IMG/VR virus record: IMGVR_UViG_2690316273_000016
Direction: 5' to 3' (one strand)
Length of the DNA stretch: 7,929 bases
Source of the DNA: a virus
Taxonomy: Duplodnaviria > Heunggongvirae > Uroviricota > Caudoviricetes
The notes beneath the pieces were generated by a model that saw only the letters and a program-made list of their open reading frames with translations, searched no databases and had not been told where the DNA came from. Of the stretch, positions 1-7,929 are shown in pieces. Within the stretch, counting starts at the first letter, position 1. Each line of letters opens with the position of its first letter. Position numbers and translations under genes: made by a program.

Positions 1-1074
1 ATGGGAAGAGGGACACAACCTGAACGCGTTAAGCTGGGAAATTATCCCGATCTGAGTCTGAAAGCAGCCAGGGAAAAAGCCGCCCAGTGTCGCGCATGGC
101 TGGCTGAGGGGAAAAATCCACGCTATGAACTGAATTACACCATGCAGGAAGCGTTAAAGCCTGTAACGGTTGGCGATGCGCTCACCTATTGGCTTGAGTC
201 GTACGCAAAGGAAAAGCGCACAGATTACGAATCACTGAAAAGCCGGATCAATAAAAACATAATCACCAAAATTGGTGCTATGCCGCTGGATAAATGCGAG
301 CTACGGCACTGGCTGGCCTGCTTTGACCAGGTGGCAAAGCGAACACCTGTTACTGCCGGATTCGTGCTACAGACATGCAAACAGGCGCTTAAGTACTGCC
401 GGAGGCGGCGCTATGTAATCAGTAACGTTCTCGATGATCTGAACGTAGCGGACGTTGGGAAAAAACCGGATATAAGCGAACGTGTCTTAAGCAATAAAGA
501 GCTGGGCGAATTATTGCAGGCACTGGACAAAAAAATATTTTCCCCCTACTACATCGCGCTAATCCGCCTCCTGATTGTGTTCGGATGCCGGACGGTCGAA
601 CTTAGGTTATCGGAGATCGGCGAGTGGGATTTTACCGAAATGCTCTGGACCGTTCCGAAGGAGCACAGCAAAACGAAGGTAGCCATATTCCGGCCTATAC
701 CGGAAGCAATACTGCCGTTCATCACGCAGCTGGTGGAGCAGAACAGGCACACGGGCTTATTGCTGGGGGAAGTGAAACAGGAGGCCAGCGTATCGCAGTA
801 TGGAAGATTAGCGCACAGGAGGCTTAATCACCCCCACTGGTCACTGCATGACATCCGGCGCACCTTTACAACCATGCTGAACGATTTAGGCGTTGATCCG
901 CATGTCGTGGAGCAGCTTACAGGACACCAGATGCCAGGGATGCAACGAGTCTATAATCACTCCCGTTATCTGGATGCGAAACGCAATGCGCTGGATATGT
1001 GGACGGAGCGGTTAGGGATACTGGCGGGAGCACATGAAAACGTAACCGCACTACCAGCAGCCAGAAGAAAATAA
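1..1074 (+). CDS. int: P4-family tyrosine integrase (site-specific recombinase), 5'-partial
   Basis: Open frame runs from the window edge to TAA at 1072-1074. Translation carries tyrosine-recombinase catalytic features: HxxR box (WSLHDIRRTF), a downstream His (LTGHQ) and a C-terminal Tyr (RVYNHSRY). The visible N-terminus (KLGNYPDLSLKAAREKAAQCRAWLAEGKNP) aligns with an internal part of the P4-type N-terminal domain, so about 50 residues are probably missing; the ATG at 1-3 is likely an internal Met. Confidence 0.9.
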   Translation: MGRGTQPERVKLGNYPDLSLKAAREKAAQCRAWLAEGKNPRYELNYTMQEALKPVTVGDALTYWLESYAKEKRTDYESLKSRINKNIITKIGAMPLDKCELRHWLACFDQVAKRTPVTAGFVLQTCKQALKYCRRRRYVISNVLDDLNVADVGKKPDISERVLSNKELGELLQALDKKIFSPYYIALIRLLIVFGCRTVELRLSEIGEWDFTEMLWTVPKEHSKTKVAIFRPIPEAILPFITQLVEQNRHTGLLLGEVKQEASVSQYGRLAHRRLNHPHWSLHDIRRTFTTMLNDLGVDPHVVEQLTGHQMPGMQRVYNHSRYLDAKRNALDMWTERLGILAGAHENVTALPAARRK

Positions 1075-1120
1075 TTTTTTTCGTGTTTTTTCAGTATGCG
1101 CATACTGGATAAGCACACAG

Positions 1121-1170
1121 ATACAACGGCGAACAATGTGAAACAACGTGGAACAACCACGAACAAGAGG
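1121..1170. repeat. Array of five tandem 10-bp units, consensus (G/A)AACAA-N4; putative protein-binding sites
   Basis: Read directly: atacaacggc / gaacaatgtg / aaacaacgtg / gaacaaccac / gaacaagagg at exact 10-bp spacing. 1148-1166 matches the reverse complement of 7348-7377 at about 18 of 19 positions. Confidence 0.5.
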
Positions 1171-1260: not shown

Positions 1261-1289
1261 AAAGGCATAAAACGAGATTTTATGCCTTT
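1261..1289. terminator. Perfect 12-bp stem hairpin, putative bidirectional intrinsic terminator between int and alpA
   Basis: AAAGGCATAAAA (1261-1272), loop cgaga, TTTTATGCCTTT (1278-1289). On the minus strand the stem is followed by a T-run (complement of the A-run at 1254-1260); on the plus strand by A/T-rich gtattaatat. Confidence 0.4.
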
Positions 1290-1449
1290 GTATTAATATG
1301 AATTTAAATGATTTTATCCTGATTGTTCCTCTTTCTGTAAACCATACGGACTCAACATTTGCCAACTCTGAATCATCCTGACACAATCAGACACAACCCA
1401 ACCCAATAACCCACCCAATGACTCTTTAAGAAACAACAAAGGGGGAATT

Positions 1450-1638
1450 GTGTTAAGCACAGATCGCTTTATACGTGAAAAAGAATGTCAGCAACTTACA
1501 GGCCTGAGCCGCTCATGTCGGTATCGCCTGGAGAAGACCGGACAATTCCCATCACGGCGTAAACTCGGCGGTCGTTCCGTTGGCTGGTCTTTATCCGAAG
1601 TTCTGGCATGGAAGGACAGCCGCGAGGCAGTTCACTAA
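1450..1638 (+). CDS. alpA: AlpA-family phage transcriptional regulator (HTH)
   Basis: 62 codons, GTG start at 1450 four nt after GGGGG (1441-1445), stop TAA 1636-1638. The segment LTGLSRSCRYRLEKTGQFPSRRKLGGRSVGWSLSEVLAW fits the AlpA family pattern (TG-S--Y---G-FP---LG-RSVGW--EV--W). Position directly downstream of a P4-type integrase is typical. Confidence 0.85.
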   Translation: MLSTDRFIREKECQQLTGLSRSCRYRLEKTGQFPSRRKLGGRSVGWSLSEVLAWKDSREAVH

Positions 1639-1884
1639 TCAGGCTGGCGGCGCACCGCCGCCACCCATCCACTAACACAGAGATCTAACCATGAATACTG
1701 GATATACGCCCGAACAGGGGCGGGGCTTCGTTCGTCCTGGTGAAACTAAAAAGCCATGTTATCGGGTATTTTCAGGCATAAAAAAAGCGGCCCCGATAAG
1801 GAACCGCCTTTCTGAACAATTAACCTGCTGCGAAAAAAATGGATCAGTGCAGGGGAATTATATCAACCGTGTGGTGAAGCGCCA

Positions 1885-1922
1885 CTATTGCCGGATAACA
1901 AGCAAAACAAAGGCGACCGCAA
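1885..1922 (-). terminator. Putative intrinsic terminator for leftward transcription
   Basis: Stem GGCGACC (1902-1908) / GGTCGCC (1916-1922), loop gcaaaag. On the minus strand it is followed by TTTGTTTTGCTTG (complement of 1885-1901). No T-tract follows on the plus strand. Confidence 0.4.
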
Positions 1923-1998
1923 AAGGGTCGCCAGTGGGAACAAGGGAAAACAAAAGCATCGCCAACAATGCCACATTTGCGGCTGGTGGGCAATGCAA

Positions 1999-2187
1999 TC
2001 AGTCTGGTTCAGTTCGTTGCCATACCTGCAATGAGCGCTTTTCCCTGTACTCTTTAAGGAATTGCTCAAGGGCAAAAGCACATGGCGCGAATCTTTCTGA
2101 TTCATGCTCTATCTTTCTGCGCCGTCTTTTCCGTGCCGGTGATAATGTTTTGGTCAATTCTTTATCGGTCATTGTGTTGTCCTGCAT
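1999..2187 (-). CDS. Hypothetical small basic protein (57-62 aa), possible second gene of the leftward transcript
   Basis: Minus-strand ORF from the track; translation (…TDKELTKTLSPARKRRRRKIEHESERFAPCAFALEQFLKEYREKR…) looks more protein-like than the overlapping plus frame. Internal ATG at 2172 has an AGGA 7 nt upstream; the first ATG at 2187 has no clear SD. Lies between the upstream regulator gene and the 1885-1922 terminator. Weak support. Confidence 0.3.
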   Translation of the reverse strand: MQDNTMTDKELTKTLSPARKRRRRKIEHESERFAPCAFALEQFLKEYREKRSLQVWQRTEPD

Positions 2188-2229
2188 AGCAATGCGCCGT
2201 AATACCTTACACCACGGCGCTGGTGATGG

Positions 2230-2409
2230 TTATTCCTGCTCTTTGGCCTTGCGACGCTGGCGGTATTCAACTTCTCGCTTTAATGCTGCTGTTACAAACT
2301 GCCCTGTACTTTCACCAGGCATTTTTACCGCCTCAACATTGTTCATAACTTCATGCGGAACCCTTGCCGCAACTGTTTGTGATTTTGCGTTTACTGCTTT
2401 TGTTGCCAT
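2230..2409 (-). CDS. Small putative DNA-binding regulator (59 aa), possibly ribbon-helix-helix; repressor-like
   Basis: Absent from the ORF track (below 60 aa). Hand translation of the minus strand from ATG (complement of 2407-2409) to TAA (complement of 2230-2232): MATKAVNAKSQTVAARVPHEVMNNVEAVKMPGESTGQFVTAALKREVEYRQRRKAKEQE. SD AAGGGG sits 8 nt upstream. Putative strand-helix-GxS/T turn-helix layout is reminiscent of Arc/CopG RHH proteins. Divergent from a promoter region with three palindromic operators. Confidence 0.5.
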   Translation of the reverse strand: MATKAVNAKSQTVAARVPHEVMNNVEAVKMPGESTGQFVTAALKREVEYRQRRKAKEQE

Positions 2410-2438
2410 GTTGTGTACCCCTTACAAAAAACAAATGC

Positions 2439-2511
2439 AGTATGCAGGAAAAAAAATAAGTGTTCAACACTTGACGTGTTTAACACCAGAGCTTAAATTG
2501 GTGTTCAACAC
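2439..2511. promoter_or_regulatory. Divergent promoter/operator switch: three palindromic operators GTGTT(C/T)AACAC over back-to-back sigma70-like promoters
   Basis: Operators at 2460-2470 (GTGTTCAACAC), 2476-2486 (GTGTTTAACAC) and 2501-2511 (GTGTTCAACAC, flanked g…c). Rightward promoter: -35 TTGACG 2471-2476, 17-bp spacer, -10 TAAATT 2494-2499. Leftward promoter on the minus strand: -35 TTGAAC (complement of 2462-2467), 17-bp spacer, -10 CATACT (complement of 2439-2444). Operators overlap both -35 elements and the rightward start site. Confidence 0.55.
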
Positions 2512-2608
2512 CTTGCTGATGCAAGGTGCAGAAACGACGAAACCCGGCAGTGCGCTAACACTAACCGGGCTTCTAACCACCAACGATAGAAAGCGTATCG
2601 AGGTAGCT

Positions 2609-2812
2609 ATGAGAAATTATACCAGACACCCGCAAGGGCGGGACTCGTACAACCTGAATAAATACATCTGGCGTTTTATCGCCCTGAGCACGGCACAACC
2701 GCGCGTGATTACCATTGAGGCCACCAGCGAACAGGAAGCGCGTCAGCAATCTCCTGATGGCTGCGTGATGGTATTCGCTGCCCGTATTCGCCAGGGGGAA
2801 CACCATGATTAA
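2609..2812 (+). CDS. Hypothetical small protein (67 aa), first gene of the rightward replication operon
   Basis: ATG at 2609 with GAGG 5-6 nt upstream; stop TAA 2810-2812 overlaps the next start (ATGATTAA). It is the only protein-like part of the 373-aa stop-free frame. An in-frame ATG at 2519 is possible but lacks an SD. Confidence 0.55.
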   Translation: MRNYTRHPQGRDSYNLNKYIWRFIALSTAQPRVITIEATSEQEARQQSPDGCVMVFAARIRQGEHHD

Positions 2813-3433: not shown

Positions 3434-3721
3434 ATGAAAAAGAAAAATTCTGGCTTTACTGCCAGCGGCCCCGCTCGGCCTGAAATCCGCCCCGGCGATA
3501 TTTTCCGGGATAACTATGGCGGCACGGTAACGATAAAAGGCGTGGCAGAACGGCGCATCACTTACCGCCGTGATGGCTACGAATATGACTGCGTGATGCC
3601 TGTTTATCAGTTCCGGCGTGATTTCACGCTGGTGGGCCATCGTAAAGCCGTAAATCAGAAACGTGCAGCAAGTCATATCCGCAAAATTCGTGAAATGCTG
3701 GTCGCAGGGGGTAAAAAATGA
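3434..3721 (+). CDS. Hypothetical basic protein (95 aa)
   Basis: ATG 3434 with GGAG 9 nt upstream; stop TGA 3719-3721 overlaps the primase ATG at 3718 (ATGA). Protein-like composition, basic C-terminus. Confidence 0.6.
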   Translation: MKKKNSGFTASGPARPEIRPGDIFRDNYGGTVTIKGVAERRITYRRDGYEYDCVMPVYQFRRDFTLVGHRKAVNQKRAASHIRKIREMLVAGGKK

Positions 3722-5532
3722 AACTGGCACCGAACGTAAAACAGCAGTCACGCGGCATAAAACACAAAGAAACAGAAGTCATTATTTTTGCGGGTAGTGA
3801 TGCCTGGTCACACGCAAAACAATGGCAGGAACATGACGCGCGTATGGCCGGAGATAATGAGCCTCCTGTGTGGCTTGGGGAGCAGCAGTTATCCGAACTG
3901 GATAAGCTGCAAATTGTGCCGGAAGGCAGAAAATCCGTGCGCATATTCAGGGCCGGATATCTTGCGCCAGTAATGATAAAGGCGATTGGTCAGAAGCTGG
4001 CGGCGGCAGGCGTACAGGATGCAAATTTTTATCCTGAGGGTATGCACGGTCAGGAGGTGCAGAACTGGCGCGGATATCTGGCCCGTGAGCGCCAGAATCT
4101 TTCTGATGGTCTGGTGATTCAGCTTCCTGTTAAGAAAAAAACAGAAGACAGCGCCGCACCACTGGCGCTTAACCAGATGGGAGCAAGCCAGCGCGGCGAA
4201 GTTCTCCTGGCACATTATGGCGGTGAACTGGCGATTCATGCCGACTCTGACACTGTTCACCATTACAACGGCGTTGTATGGGAGCCGATTCAGGATAAAG
4301 AGTTACAGCGTGCTATGGCGCAGATTTTCATTGATGCGGAGATCAGCTATTCGCAGAACGCCATTAAATCGGCGGTCGATACCATGAAGTTAAGTTTGCC
4401 TGTAATGGGGAATACAGCCCGTAACCTGATTGGATTCAGTAACGGGGTATTTGATACCAGAACAGGTAATTTTCGGGAGCATAACAAAAACGACTGGTTG
4501 TTAATTGCCAGTGAATTACCTTTCAGCCCACCAGCAGAGGGGGAAACGCTGGCAACACATGCGCCGAATTTCTGGAAGTGGTTACGCTGCTCGGTGGCAG
4601 AGAATGACCGCAAGACGGATCGCGTGCTGGCTGCATTATTCATGGTGCTGGCGAACCGGTACGACTGGCAGTTATTCATTGAGGTAACAGGTCCAGGGGG
4701 AAGTGGTAAAAGCGTGATGGCGGAGATTTGCACTATGCTGGCGGGTAAGGCCAACACAGTATCGGCAAGCATGAAGGCGCTGGAAGATGCAAGGGAACGC
4801 GCGTTAGTGGTTGGCTTTTCGCTGATTATCATGCCGGATATGACCCGCTACGCTGGTGATGGCGCAGGAATTAAGGCCATTACAGGCGGTGACAAGGTGG
4901 CAATCGACCCGAAGCATAAAGCCCCCTACTCAACACGCATTCAGGCGGTCGTGCTGGCGGTGAACAATAACGCCATGTCATTCAGTGACCGCAGCGGGGG
5001 GATCTCACGTCGTCGGGTGATATTCAATTTTTCGGAGGTTGTACCGGAGAACGAGCGCGACCCCATGCTGGCAGAAAAAATAGAAGGAGAGCTGGCGGTT
5101 GTGATTCGCCATCTGCTTACTCGTTTTTCTGACCAGGACGAAGCTAAACGCCTGCTGTATGAGCAGCAGAAATCAGAAGAAGCTCTGGTGATAAAACGCG
5201 AGGGCGATTCGCTGGTGGACTTCTGTGGCTATCTCATGTCGTCGGTAATGTGTGATGGTCTGTTAGTGGGTAATGCCGAAATTATTCCGTTCAGTCCGCG
5301 CAGGTATCTTTATCACGCCTATCTGGCATATATGAGGGCACACGGATTCGGTAAACCTGTAACACTGACGCGCTTCGGTAAAGATATGCCGGGGGCAATG
5401 GCGGAATATGGCAGGGAGTATATAAAACGGAAAACGAAGCACGGTTTGCGTTCAAATGTGACACTGACAGAGGATTCAGAAGACTGTATGCCATCATGTG
5501 CATCGGTCACAAATGACGACAGCAAAAATTAA
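3718..5532 (+). CDS. P4-family phage/plasmid primase C-terminal domain protein (D5-like SF3 NTPase/helicase); element replication initiator
   Basis: 604-aa ORF. Walker A GPGGSGKS (…FIEVTGPGGSGKSVMAEI…). Flanking blocks (NGVFDTRTGNFREH…, …ITGGDKVAIDPKHKAPYS…, …RRRVIFNFSEVVPENERDPMLAEKI…) match the conserved layout of P4-family primase C-terminal / D5_N-type proteins. SD GGGGG precedes the start. Confidence 0.88.
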   Translation: MKLAPNVKQQSRGIKHKETEVIIFAGSDAWSHAKQWQEHDARMAGDNEPPVWLGEQQLSELDKLQIVPEGRKSVRIFRAGYLAPVMIKAIGQKLAAAGVQDANFYPEGMHGQEVQNWRGYLARERQNLSDGLVIQLPVKKKTEDSAAPLALNQMGASQRGEVLLAHYGGELAIHADSDTVHHYNGVVWEPIQDKELQRAMAQIFIDAEISYSQNAIKSAVDTMKLSLPVMGNTARNLIGFSNGVFDTRTGNFREHNKNDWLLIASELPFSPPAEGETLATHAPNFWKWLRCSVAENDRKTDRVLAALFMVLANRYDWQLFIEVTGPGGSGKSVMAEICTMLAGKANTVSASMKALEDARERALVVGFSLIIMPDMTRYAGDGAGIKAITGGDKVAIDPKHKAPYSTRIQAVVLAVNNNAMSFSDRSGGISRRRVIFNFSEVVPENERDPMLAEKIEGELAVVIRHLLTRFSDQDEAKRLLYEQQKSEEALVIKREGDSLVDFCGYLMSSVMCDGLLVGNAEIIPFSPRRYLYHAYLAYMRAHGFGKPVTLTRFGKDMPGAMAEYGREYIKRKTKHGLRSNVTLTEDSEDCMPSCASVTNDDSKN

Positions 5533-5544
5533 ACTTATGGAATA

Positions 5545-5775
5545 ACTGTTCACCACTGTTCACCCTGTTATAAATATCTTTTATATCAGTACATTATAGG
5601 GTGAACAGTTATTTGTGAACTGTTCACCAAACTATTCACTGTTCACCTTTTTGATTATTTATTGAGCTTTAAGGGTGAACAGTGGTGAACAGTTGGTGAA
5701 TAGTTTTTGTGAAACTGTTCACCCCTTAACATTATGAATAAAAAGGGAAAATCTCAAAAGGTGAACAGGTGAAGG
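5545..5775. repeat. Iteron array in both orientations (CTGTTCACC / GGTGAACAG) with AT-rich spacers; putative replication origin
   Basis: Forward TGTTCACC at 5547-5554, 5557-5564 (two tandem 10-bp ACTGTTCACC units), 5621-5628, 5640-5647, 5716-5723, plus variant CTATTCACT at 5632-5640. Reverse GGTGAACAG at 5600-5608, 5674-5682, 5684-5692, 5760-5768, variant GGTGAATAG at 5695-5703, half-site GTGAAC at 5615-5620. Lies directly 3' of the primase gene. Confidence 0.6.
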
Positions 5776-7302: not shown

Positions 7303-7329
7303 GGCCCGGATTTTTTCCGGGCCTTTTTT
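7303..7329 (+). terminator. Rho-independent terminator closing the accessory operon
   Basis: Stem GGCCCGGA (7303-7310) / TCCGGGCC (7316-7323), loop ttttt, then TTTTTT (7324-7329), ten nt after the stop of the last ORF. Confidence 0.75.
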
Positions 7330-7347
7330 CAGGTTTTGTAAATTATT

Positions 7348-7377
7348 TGTTCGTGGTTGTTCCAGGTTGTTCGGTGA
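7348..7377. repeat. Three tandem 10-bp units TTGTTC-N4 (ttgttcgtgg / ttgttccagg / ttgttcggtg), inverted copy of the 1121-1170 array
   Basis: Read directly; its reverse complement (caccgaacaacctggaacaaccacgaacaa) matches 1148-1166. Sits just upstream of a candidate -35 at 7390. Confidence 0.5.
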
Positions 7378-7389
7378 TTCTGGCTGATG

Positions 7390-7417
7390 TTTACATACTG
7401 ATTTTTATGTATATGTT
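7390..7417 (+). promoter_or_regulatory. Candidate sigma70-like promoter for the capsid operon
   Basis: -35 TTTACA (7390-7395), 16-bp spacer, -10 TATGTT (7412-7417). Predicts a leader of about 140 nt before the ATG at 7567. Weak, sequence-only. Confidence 0.3.
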
Positions 7418-7566
7418 GGCGTGTGGCACTCAGACGTGAGCCGCCACAATGCCGCCTGACCCCCTGCGCGATGCCGGGTTGATCTGCGAGATGCCGAGAG
7501 TGTCGGGCGGCGCTCCCCCCGTGTTGGTTTCACGTCCTGAATCTTAACCAATGCGAGAAAACCTTC

Positions 7567-7929
7567 ATGAAGAAATTAATCGAACTCCGCCAGCAAAAAA
7601 CCGCCCTGAAAAACCAGATGCGATCCCTGCTGGAAAAAGCCGACAGTGAAAACCGCAGCCTGAACGATGACGAAGGCAAACAGTTTGATGAACTGCGTGC
7701 AAAAGCCGATTCCCTCGACACAGAAATTTCCCGCCTCGAGTCTGTGGCTGATGAAGAACGTAACCAGCCTGGTGTTCCCGTCGAAGATAAAATCACCAAA
7801 AATGAGCTACGCTCTTACATTCTGACCGGGGAAACCCGCAACCTGTCCGGCAGTGTTCCGGCTGATGGTGGTTATACGGTTATCCCGGAACTGAACAGAG
7901 AAATTATGCGTCAGCTTTCTGATGAGTCG
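7567..7929 (+). CDS. HK97-family major capsid protein, N-terminal 121 aa (3'-partial, runs off the window)
   Basis: Not in the ORF track (no stop inside the window). ATG at 7567, open in frame to 7929. Translation: a charged coiled-coil-like N-terminus (MKKLIELRQQKTALKNQMRSLLEKADSENRSLNDDEGKQFDELRAKADSLDTEISRLES…) followed by …PADGGYTVIPELNREIMRQLSDES, matching the characteristic GGYLVP-E---I--L motif near the start of HK97-fold capsid proteins. Confidence 0.7.
   Translation, partial: MKKLIELRQQKTALKNQMRSLLEKADSENRSLNDDEGKQFDELRAKADSLDTEISRLESVADEERNQPGVPVEDKITKNELRSYILTGETRNLSGSVPADGGYTVIPELNREIMRQLSDES

What the first reader, a model, noticed from the sequence alone, without database searches (positions are those of the whole stretch)
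1121..1170. Inverted pair of 10-bp-periodic ACAA / TTGTTC repeat arrays bracketing the regulatory and replication region (left array)
Five tandem 10-bp units (G/A)AACAA-N4 at 1121-1170 reappear, reverse-complemented and nearly identical over about 19 bp, as three tandem TTGTTC-N4 units at 7348-7377 some 6.2 kb away. Ten-bp phasing places each unit on the same helix face, typical of cooperative binding by an activator or of integrase arm-type sites. The right array sits just upstream of the candidate capsid promoter; the left array sits between int and alpA. The two arrays may therefore be targets of one element-encoded regulator (AlpA is the obvious candidate) coordinating the two ends of the module. 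Which protein binds is inference.
Basis: partly seen in the sequence, partly recalled or inferred. Interest (0 to 1): 0.62.

Follow-up and report, generated by a model that had tools for sequence, protein, structure and literature searches.

The report
Candidate AlpA operator arrays in a phage satellite
The two 10-bp-periodic repeat arrays are real, conserved protein-binding sites of a capsid-forming phage satellite (cf-PICI), and they most likely let its small excisionase-like regulator AlpA couple excision, its own expression and switch-on of the satellite's capsid genes, which is a known type of mechanism not previously mapped in these elements.

Summary
Five (R)AACAA-N4 units lie at 1121-1170. 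Three TTGTTC-N4 units, plus a fourth TTGTAA unit, lie at 7336-7376. The two arrays form a 25-nt inverted repeat with 24/25 matches, far above chance.

The window is the left 8 kb of a cf-PICI: int, alpA, P4-like primase and origin, ssb, then a capsid operon.

The arrays are not an isolated pair. In close relatives the same phased units also occupy both attachment-site arms. A weaker array overlaps the predicted alpA promoter.

All 55 distinct int-alpA spacers examined keep 5-7 phased units, with an invariant ACAA core and variable spacers. The right array is the best-conserved block of the pre-capsid spacer and sits 17 nt upstream of a sigma-70-like promoter.

Separate 12-bp doublets (GGTGTAGTTAAT x2) occur only in the att arms and co-vary with the integrase arm-binding domain. 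These doublets, not the arrays, are the likely arm-type sites.

AlpA is 46% identical to the P4 excisionase/regulator Vis and has an excisionase-type winged-helix fold. Proteins of this class bind head-to-tail on direct repeats one helical turn apart.

The best reading is that the arrays are AlpA operators. Binding itself is inferred, not shown. This is a new member of a known kind, of moderate interest.

The parts
1121..1170 (+). Distal int-alpA array: five 10-bp units with an (R)AACAA core on the + strand
   Evidence: All 55 distinct int-alpA spacers from related islands carry 5-7 phased units. Core frequencies are A 1.00, C 0.87, A 0.98, A 1.00, and the spacers vary.
7336..7376 (-). Pre-capsid array: TTGTAA, then 11 bp on, TTGTTC x3 at 10-bp spacing on the + strand (AACAA on the - strand)
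   Evidence: The block is 40/43 identical between two capsid lineages, whereas the flanks are 41-55% identical. It is present in all 31 distinct pre-capsid spacers examined.
1381..1416 (+). Weaker proximal array ACACAATCAG ACACAACCCA ACCCAATAAC CCACCC, overlapping the -10 region and start of the predicted alpA promoter
   Evidence: Phased ACACAA/GAACAA-like units are kept in all sub-lineages although the sequence differs. This part carries moderate confidence.
1359..1387 (+). Predicted alpA promoter: TTGCCA, 17 nt, CACAAT, with an upstream TG
   Evidence: Consensus scan. TTTGCCA is conserved in all spacers. No transcription start site data are available.
1261..1289 (.). Conserved hairpin between the distal array and the alpA promoter. 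It looks like a terminator on both strands, with a U6 tail on the - strand
   Evidence: Folding z-score is -3.8 on the + strand and -5.7 on the - strand. The hairpin is conserved in alignment A1.
1450..1638 (+). alpA, 62 aa: the candidate binder of the arrays
   Evidence: Pfam PF05930, E = 2.7e-18. PHROG 'excisionase and transcriptional regulator'. 46% identical to P4 Vis. Model pLDDT 88; best structural matches are the GIsul2 excisionase 8c3t (TM 0.80), RdfS, TorI and BldC.
1..1074 (+). int, a tyrosine recombinase with an arm DNA-binding domain. Its 5' end is cut off by the window
   Evidence: Pfam PF00589, PF13356 and PF22022. The full-length protein is 409 aa in relatives.
7303..7332 (+). 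Intrinsic terminator that ends the ssb-proQ-orf82 unit, immediately upstream of the right array
   Evidence: Folding energy -21.7 kcal/mol, z-score -5.45, followed by U6.
7390..7417 (+). Predicted capsid-operon promoter: TTTACA, 16 nt, TATGTT. Array units would centre near -54, -64, -74 and -85
   Evidence: Consensus scan. The -35 element TTTAC sits at a near-constant distance (16-19 nt) downstream of the array in every lineage.
7567..7929 (+). 5' part of the HK97-type major capsid gene, the first gene of the packaging operon
   Evidence: Annotation of relatives.

Best explanation
The arrays are operator arrays for AlpA, the island's 62-aa winged-helix protein, which is an excisionase-type recombination directionality factor and activator. 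As in Xis, Cox, Apl and Vis, monomers would bind head-to-tail and cooperatively to direct repeats one helical turn apart and bend the DNA.

The same kind of array occurs at four or five places in the element:
- in both att arms, next to the integrase arm-type doublets, where it would direct excision;
- downstream of int, and again over the alpA promoter, where it would act in autoregulation;
- centred about -54 to -85 upstream of the capsid-operon promoter, just after a strong terminator, where it would act as an upstream activator site.

Once a helper phage turns on alpA, one protein would therefore couple excision with expression of the satellite's own capsid and packaging genes.

What is shown: the arrays, their phasing, their positions, their conservation, and the family and fold of AlpA. 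What is inferred: that AlpA binds them, that the right array activates transcription, and what the distal left array does.
For: (1) The arrays are real and far above chance.

(2) Selection acts on the phased core. In 55 distinct int-alpA spacers the ACAA core is 87-100% conserved at a 10-bp period while the spacers vary. One island gained an extra unit by an exact 10-bp duplication.

(3) The right array is the conserved island of its spacer. It is 40/43 identical between capsid lineages that are 74% identical in protein, against 18/44 for the promoter and 21/38 for the terminator. The -35 element TTTAC lies a near-constant 16-19 nt downstream in 31 distinct spacers.

(4) The same units occur in both att arms of relatives: 5+4 units in the int-proximal arm (P') and 3 in the distal arm (P). 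Those arms are island DNA, because joining the flanks recreates an empty allC-allE site found in more than 5300 E. coli genomes.

(5) The arm-type sites are a different element. GGTGTAGTTAAT x2 occurs only in the arms and follows the Int N-terminal sequence: RHSTSGL with TTAAT in 16 loci, KYLTSGK with TCACT in 8 loci, and three further variants in a distant lineage. AlpA alleles A3 and A6 each occur with both doublet types. The geometry matches the annotated P4 attP arm repeats and the doubled motif of HE-PICIs (PMC10111431).

(6) int and alpA are the only genes shared by all array-bearing islands. The primase type (D5/P4-alpha, DUF927, RepA), the gene upstream of the capsid promoter (orf82 or PerC, with no detectable similarity) and the late genes all vary.

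(7) Units change with the AlpA/Int lineage. Where AlpA is 63-69% identical, the arm units and pre-capsid units 2-3 read nnGTTCR or nnTTTCA instead of TTGTTC.

(8) AlpA belongs to the right class of protein: PF05930, 46% identical to P4 Vis, and an excisionase/MerR-type winged-helix fold.

(9) Published data fit. RDFs bind direct repeats one turn apart and often double as regulators (PMC7498355; RdfS, PMC11963761). [quoted passage not shown] An alpA mutant of a cf-PICI is neither induced nor transferred (bioRxiv 10.1101/2022.09.08.507074).
Against: - There are no binding data.
- The AlpA lineage and the broad Int lineage are linked, so the change in unit sequence in the distant lineage does not separate the two proteins. 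The separation rests on the doublet/Int covariation, which involves only about five independent classes.
- The first two right-array units (TTGTAA, TTGTTC) are the same in both AlpA lineages.
- Island L002 carries a 53%-identical AlpA with an unchanged right array. This is a recent recombinant and may reflect cross-recognition or a mismatch.
- The left arrays have the opposite polarity to the right array relative to the downstream gene. The distal left array lies about 190 bp, and across a hairpin, from the predicted alpA promoter, and the proximal units overlap the -10 and +1 positions, where binding would normally repress rather than activate.
- Classical PICIs with the same AlpA lack an array before their late genes.
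- The att arms were seen only in relatives, because the window starts inside int.
Confidence: 0.6

Rival explanations
1. The arrays are arm-type binding sites for the N-terminal domain of the integrase. The internal copies would serve Int-mediated regulation or higher-order intasome contacts.
For: Int carries an arm DNA-binding domain (PF13356). Tandem arm sites spaced about 10 bp apart are known in lambda (own knowledge). The arrays do occur in both att arms, and the unit type changes together with the broad Int lineage.
Against: A second repeat, the 12-bp doublets, is confined to the arms. It has the geometry of the annotated P4 arm repeats and of the HE-PICI doubled motif, and it co-varies with the Int N-terminal residues, whereas the arrays stay unchanged across those Int variants. 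The window arrays lie 1.3 kb and 7.5 kb from the core, and one sits in a promoter-upstream position.
Confidence: 0.12
2. The arrays, at least the two internal ones, are bound by another factor. Candidates are the unidentified helper-phage inducer that turns on alpA, another island protein, or a host nucleoid protein.
For: Helper phages activate alpA transcription through an unknown factor (PMC6092414). The first two right-array units are invariant across AlpA lineages. L002 keeps the array with a divergent AlpA.
Against: The same units sit in the att arms, where an RDF is expected. No other island gene is shared by all array-bearing islands. The units differ between island lineages living in the same hosts, which argues against a host factor. 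The units do not fit the IHF consensus (own knowledge).
Confidence: 0.12
3. The arrays are auxiliary replication sites for the P4-alpha-like primase/helicase, analogous to the P4 crr region, acting together with the origin at 5540-5770.
For: TTGTTC overlaps part of the P4 type I iteron TGTTCACC. P4 needs a second cis site several kb from its origin (annotation).
Against: The origin iterons in the window are (C)TGTTCACC, not TTGTTC-N4 (D1 and I1). The arrays are unchanged in islands with unrelated initiators (DUF927 primase, RepA helicase).
Confidence: 0.02
4. The arrays are a chance occurrence or a compositional artefact.
For: GAACAA alone is only mildly enriched in the window (11 hits against 5.9 expected).
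Against: The phased pattern is 20-fold enriched, with 0 of 200 shuffles reaching the observed count. The arrays are conserved at the same positions in dozens of diverged islands.
Confidence: 0.01

Closest known systems
Coliphage 186 Apl and P2 Cox: dual-purpose recombination directionality factors
   Same: A small DNA-binding protein binds arrays of 5-7 direct repeats spaced 10-11 bp apart, both in the att site and at promoters, and so links excision to transcription control (PMC7498355). P2 Cox also activates the late promoter PLL of the satellite P4; three tandem 10-bp repeats are annotated next to that region in P4 (attribution to Cox from own knowledge, Saha et al. 1989).
   Different: Apl and Cox mainly repress the lysis-lysogeny switch promoters of a true phage. 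Here the protein is an AlpA/Vis-family member of a satellite. The promoter-proximal array sits in an activator position before a capsid operon. The unit sequence (AACAA) is different.
Satellite phage P4 Vis (ORF88), with the P4 Int attP arm repeats
   Same: AlpA is 46% identical to Vis, which is annotated as an excisionase and transcriptional regulator. The P4 attP has tandem 12-bp arm doublets about 75 and 134 bp from the core, the same geometry as the GGTGTAGTTAAT doublets here.
   Different: I could not retrieve the Vis binding sites. P4 has no capsid operon of its own. The Int proteins are only 25% identical. The arm repeat sequence differs (GGGGGCA against GGTGTAG).
AlpA of EcCICFT073 and other Gram-negative PICIs and cf-PICIs
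   Same: The protein is the same (97% identical), the int-alpA spacer with its array is the same, and the att-arm arrays are the same. AlpA is the activator of the PICI cycle and of its own promoter (PMC6092414). The window is a cf-PICI of the EcCIEDL933 kind.
   Different: The papers found describe no operator sequences. Classical PICIs lack the pre-late-gene array. The direct link to the capsid promoter appears specific to cf-PICIs.
Doubled attP motif of helper-embedded PICIs (tgTGTATTGCa x2)
   Same: A co-oriented tandem doublet in each attP arm, about 81 bp from the centre on one side and about 132 bp on the other, with the binder left open between the Int arm domain and AlpA (PMC10111431). 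The doublets in relatives of this island have that layout.
   Different: That motif corresponds to the doublets, not to the finding's arrays. The paper reported it as absent from other PICIs. Here a sequence variant of it is present, and it co-varies with the Int N-terminus.
RdfS of ICEMlSymR7A, lambda Xis, TorI and BldC: winged-helix proteins that oligomerise head-to-tail on DNA
   Same: The fold class is the same. RdfS binds attP and promoters and couples excision with transfer functions.
   Different: No clear sequence motif was found for RdfS. These elements are ICEs or phages, not satellites.

Membership tests
Operator arrays of recombination directionality factors (Xis/Cox/Apl/Vis type) | Three or more direct repeats in the same orientation, spaced one helical turn (10-11 bp) apart | tested here: met
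   5-7 phased units are present in all 55 distinct spacers.
Operator arrays of recombination directionality factors (Xis/Cox/Apl/Vis type) | Copies lie in an att arm next to integrase arm-type sites | tested here: met
   Met in close relatives: L001 11684-11795 and 26185-26214, adjacent to the doublets. The arms of the window's own island lie outside the window.
Operator arrays of recombination directionality factors (Xis/Cox/Apl/Vis type) | The element encodes a small winged-helix RDF | tested here: met
   alpA has PF05930, is 46% identical to P4 Vis, and has an excisionase fold.
Operator arrays of recombination directionality factors (Xis/Cox/Apl/Vis type) | The RDF binds the repeats cooperatively and bends the DNA | not testable with these tools
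   This needs EMSA, footprinting or ChIP.
Integrase arm-type sites | Located within the attP arms, within roughly 150 bp of the crossover core | tested here: not met
   The two arrays in the window lie about 1.3 kb and 7.5 kb from the core. The arm copies do meet this feature.
Integrase arm-type sites | The sequence follows the specificity of the Int N-terminal arm-binding domain | tested here: not met
   The arrays are unchanged between Int N-terminal classes, whereas the 12-bp doublets change with them.
P4-type origin/crr iterons | Type I iteron TGTTCACC, with a sequence tied to the initiator protein | tested here: not met
   The iterons are at 5540-5770. The arrays persist with unrelated initiators.
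Capsid-forming PICI (cf-PICI) | int, alpA and pri-rep plus the island's own capsid, protease, portal, connector, HNH, terS and terL genes; about 15 kb; no tail or lysis genes; a dedicated att site | tested here: met
   Annotation of the 99.4%-identical island in AST240.
Pseudomonas aeruginosa AlpA antiterminator and its binding element (ABE) | A 21Q-like multi-helix protein that binds GGGACG between the -35 and -10 elements and loads onto RNA polymerase | tested here: not met
   That protein's DNA-contacting residues are numbered 128-142 and it has eight helices. This AlpA has 62 aa, and its sites are repeats upstream of the promoter.

The most novel reading that the evidence does not exclude
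A single 62-aa excisionase-type protein runs the whole induction programme of capsid-forming satellites through one polar operator code. Arrays in both att arms license excision, arrays around alpA set a feed-forward threshold, and an array at the capsid promoter makes the satellite's own head and packaging operon directly AlpA-dependent, and therefore independent of helper late-gene activators. The inverted polarity of the int-alpA arrays relative to all the others would then reflect looping or insulation between int and the induced genes, rather than simple activation.
Probability: 0.3. Interest if true: 0.55.

Novelty: new member of a known kind. Interest (0 to 1): 0.45.

Why it matters
AlpA is known genetically as the master activator of Gram-negative PICIs, but the papers I could find do not describe its DNA targets. 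These arrays give concrete, testable operators.

They suggest how excision, autoregulation and capsid-gene expression are tied to one signal in cf-PICIs. They also help explain why cf-PICIs can build their own capsids on induction.

The analysis separates AlpA sites from integrase arm-type sites. This addresses a question left open for the doubled attP motif of helper-embedded PICIs.

The motif could also improve annotation of satellite boundaries and promoters, and help in engineering PICI-based delivery vehicles.

Tried and rejected
- **Rfam, whole window, permissive threshold.** It found nothing relevant to the arrays or to the capsid leader.
- **Antitermination by analogy with P. aeruginosa AlpA.** Rejected. 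That protein is a large 21Q-like factor with a single GGGACG site inside the promoter and shares only the name.
- **crr/iteron idea.** Rejected, because the arrays are independent of the replication module.
- **Binding by the product of the gene just upstream of the right array.** Rejected. orf82 here and PerC in other lineages show no detectable similarity, yet the array is the same, and array-bearing islands exist without either gene.
- **Antisense promoter driven by the left array, by analogy with the right one.** No -35/-10 match lies at the equivalent distance on the - strand, and the palindrome there is absent from the CFT073 sub-lineage.
- **A + strand promoter directly downstream of the left array.** No consensus match.
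- **Scan of genome contigs with AlpA.** Returned only 3 loci. The IMG/VR scan with an AlpA alignment was used instead.
- **Reading the GGTGTAGTTAAT direct repeats as the att core, with the flanks as remnants of an older element.** Rejected after reconstructing the empty site.
- **PDB code 8c3t.** Not found in the paper library.

Full report
**What the window is.** The ORFs and their domains are as follows:
- a tyrosine integrase with an arm DNA-binding domain, cut off at its 5' end by the window (1-1074);
- a 62-aa AlpA-family protein (1450-1638);
- a leftward YlcI/YnfO-like gene (2230-2409);
- several small ORFs, including a DUF4222 protein;
- a D5/P4-alpha-type primase (3718-5532);
- an iteron-rich origin (about 5540-5770);
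- SSB, a ProQ/FinO protein and an 82-aa ORF;
- the start of a capsid gene (7567 onward).

Megablast against complete E. coli genomes finds 99.4%-identical islands covering 92% of the window. In strain AST240 (locus L001) the capsid gene is followed by protease, portal, connector, HNH, terS and terL genes. That is the gene set of the capsid-forming PICIs typified by EcCIEDL933. L001 coordinates equal window + 12000 on the left and window + 11845 on the right.

**The observation.** The two arrays are real.
- An inverted repeat joins 1142-1166 and 7347-7371, 25 nt and 96% complementary.
- TRF calls period 10 at both places.
- RAACAA-N4-RAACAA with at most 1 mismatch gives 8 hits against 0.41 expected, and no shuffle out of 200 reached 8.
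- The left array has five units (1121-1170).
- The right array has three TTGTTC units (7347, 7357, 7367), preceded by a TTGTAA unit at 7336.

The same pattern search on L001 also hits the spacer upstream of int and the far end of the island.

Joining L001 up to 11670 with L001 from 26333 onward recreates a contiguous allC-allE junction. That junction is present at 95-100% identity (100% in the best hits) in more than 5300 E. coli genomes. The island therefore runs from 11671 to about 26332, flanked by a 7-bp ATATCCC repeat, and the arms are island DNA.

- The int-proximal (P') arm holds five TGTT units at 11684-11733 and four TTGT units at 11756-11795.
- The distal (P) arm holds three units at 26185-26214.
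- All are in the orientation of the right array.
- Each arm also holds a tandem 12-bp doublet, GGTGTAGTTAAT x2.

The same layout recurs in every island with this int/alpA pair, whatever its integration site, replication module or late genes. Examples are CFT073 (EcCICFT073), an O157 EDL933-type island, a Shigella flexneri island, STEC346 and ETEC-2264.

A weaker phased array (ACACAA-N4 x3-4, 1381-1416) overlaps the -10 region of the predicted alpA promoter, and it is kept in all sub-lineages despite sequence change.

**Evidence of selection.**
- In 55 distinct int-alpA spacers (73 loci from E. coli genomes and IMG/VR), every one has 5-7 phased units.
- The core is A 1.00, C 0.87, A 0.98, A 1.00. 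The neighbouring positions are variable, apart from a weaker G preference at two spacer positions.
- One island has an extra unit made by an exact 10-bp duplication.
- In the pre-capsid spacer, the array block is 40/43 identical between the window lineage and the O157 lineage, whose capsids are 74% identical. The terminator is 21/38, the promoter 18/44 and the leader about 50% identical.
- Across 31 distinct pre-capsid spacers the array is always present. A TTTAC -35 element lies a near-constant distance (16-19 nt) downstream, followed by a TAT-rich -10 element.
- A strong intrinsic terminator (7303-7332; -21.7 kcal/mol, z -5.45) lies just upstream, so the capsid operon needs its own promoter.
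- With a start site near 7424, the units centre near -54, -64, -74 and -85. This start site is inferred from the -10 element.

**Who binds: Int or AlpA?** The doublets occur only in the att arms, and they follow the Int N-terminal arm-binding segment.
- Int with ...LSVRHSTSGLLTW goes with GGTGTAGTTAAT (16 loci).
- Int with ...LSVKYLTSGKLTW goes with GGTGTAGTCACT (8 loci).
- In a distant lineage, three further Int variants go with GGTGTAGTCAGT, GGTGTATCACAA and GGTGCAGTCAGT, although the AlpA helix-turn-helix is identical there.
- L002 has GGTGTATCACTT with yet another Int.
- AlpA alleles A3 and A6 each occur with both of the first two doublet types.

The doublet geometry is roughly 80-90 bp from the core on one side and 132-144 bp on the int side. 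This equals that of the annotated attP arm repeats of P4 and of the doubled motif reported for helper-embedded PICIs, whose binder was left open (PMC10111431).

The doublets are therefore the likely arm-type sites. The arrays do not change with the Int arm domain and also occur far from att, so they need another binder.

The only other gene shared by all array-bearing islands is alpA. The gene upstream of the right array differs between lineages without detectable similarity.

In the lineage where AlpA is 63-69% identical, with a different recognition-helix region, the arm units and pre-capsid units 2-3 read nnGTTCR or nnTTTCA rather than TTGTTC. Int differs there too, so this agrees with the AlpA reading but does not prove it.

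**AlpA is the right kind of protein.**
- It matches PF05930 and the PHROG 'excisionase and transcriptional regulator'.
- It is 46% identical to P4 Vis.
- Its AlphaFold model (pLDDT 88) matches best the GIsul2 excisionase 8c3t (TM 0.80), then the MerR-type DNA-binding domain of CarH, and further down RdfS, TorI, BldC and other MerR-type winged helices.

RDFs of this class bind head-to-tail, cooperatively, to direct repeats one helical turn apart. Several also regulate promoters, including Apl, Cox, Vis and RdfS (PMC7498355; PMC11963761).

In EcCICFT073, which has the same AlpA (97% identical) and the same arrays, AlpA activates its own promoter. It is necessary, and when overexpressed sufficient, for int-dependent excision and replication. 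It did not change int promoter activity (PMC6092414). An alpA mutant of EcCIEDL933 is neither induced nor transferred.

**Proposed mechanism.** A helper phage turns on alpA. AlpA then polymerises on the phased units.
- In the att arms it would bend the DNA next to the Int arm sites and favour excision.
- At 7336-7376 it would recruit or stabilise RNA polymerase at a promoter with a good -35 element and a weak -10 element, turning on capsid, protease, portal, terS and terL.
- Around its own gene it would shape autoregulation.

The role of the distal left array is the weakest point. It lies in the int 3' untranslated region, about 190 bp and one terminator-like hairpin (1261-1289) upstream of the predicted alpA promoter. 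Its polarity is opposite to that of all the other arrays. Looping to the proximal units, insulation of alpA from int read-through, and a threshold-setting sink are all possible. None was tested.

**Limits.**
- There are no binding or expression data for these sites.
- The related loci are not independent samples.
- The Int/doublet covariation rests on about five classes.
- The window's own att arms are not visible.
- L002 combines a 53%-identical AlpA with an unchanged right array. Its arms do contain TTGTTC-like units, so cross-recognition is plausible.
- Classical PICIs with the same AlpA have no array before their late genes. The capsid link therefore seems specific to cf-PICIs.

**Novelty.** I found no description of AlpA operators in PICIs. 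The mechanism class, a dual-purpose RDF acting on phased direct repeats, is well known. This is a new member of a known kind. It is of moderate interest and directly testable.

Noticed in passing
L001 11799-11822 and 26228-26251 (att arms of a 99.4% relative; outside the window): Tandem 12-bp doublets, GGTGTAGTTAAT x2, occur in both att arms and nowhere else in the islands. Their sequence follows the Int N-terminal arm-binding segment across about five variants and is independent of the AlpA allele. The geometry matches the P4 attP arm repeats and the 'doubled motif' of helper-embedded PICIs, which was reported as absent from other PICIs.
   Followed up: yes
window 7422-7448: A conserved hairpin, GTGGCACTCA-GACG-TGAGCCGCCAC, lies at the predicted 5' end of the capsid-operon transcript. 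In the O157 lineage three inner-stem pairs change on both sides (CTCA/TGAG to CCAG/CTGG) while the GACG loop is kept. There is no Rfam match. A ProQ/FinO-family gene lies just upstream in this island.
   Followed up: partly
window 2460-2511: Three palindromic operator-like sites (GTGTTCAACAC, GTGTTTAACAC, GTGTTCAACAC) lie in the divergent region between the leftward ylcI/ynfO-like gene and the rightward icd-like/replication operon, overlapping a promoter-like site at 2471-2499. This looks like a separate repressor switch for the replication module.
   Followed up: no
window 1092-1107; 7394-7401; L002 8516-8557: A perfect 16-bp palindrome, CAGTATGCGCATACTG, lies just after int. The half-site CATACTGA recurs overlapping the -35 element of the capsid promoter. 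It also recurs as a 10-nt inverted repeat upstream of the divergent alpA of L002. The palindrome is absent from the CFT073 sub-lineage. Its meaning is unknown.
   Followed up: partly
window 5531-5770: The replication origin downstream of the primase has (C)TGTTCACC / GGTGAACAG iterons in inverted clusters. This is the same octamer as the P4 type I iterons.
   Followed up: partly
L001 11664-11671 and 26326-26345 (island junctions): The island is inserted exactly at the allE start. The native ATG stays on the attR side and the attL side reads AAG-GGA-TAT. allE is annotated 14 codons short and is separated from allDC, so integration probably impairs allE expression.
   Followed up: partly
L002 (E. 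coli E2528-C1), whole island: A natural mosaic. Its replication and packaging modules are 98.7% identical to the window from position 1975 onward. Its int is different (47% identical), there is an extra gene, and its 94-aa AlpA is 53% identical. It is integrated at the hpt start and replaces the 5' end of hpt.
   Followed up: partly
L080-L091, just upstream of alpA: In the distant lineage a G+C-rich hairpin followed by a T-run (GCCCTCGAAC..CGAACGAGGGC-TTTTTATATG) ends 5 nt before the alpA start codon and includes the GAGGG ribosome-binding site. Some members also carry two GGTGATATCACC palindromes just upstream. This suggests a different control of alpA there.
   Followed up: no
window 1313-1341 (- strand) with the hairpin at 1261-1289: A conserved TTTACA-17-GATAAA match lies on the - strand, with one GAACAA unit in its spacer. 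It points toward the hairpin, which has a U6 tail on that strand. It could make an RNA of about 50 nt upstream of, and divergent from, the predicted alpA promoter. This rests on consensus matches only.
   Followed up: no
window 1691-2812 and 1891-1958: The 373-aa ORF listed mechanically here is not a gene; relatives annotate a pseudogene fragment. The region holds terminator-like hairpins on the - strand (1912-1932, 1955-1972), flanked by two further AACAA-N5-AACAA pairs. Whether these belong to the arrays is unclear.
   Followed up: no
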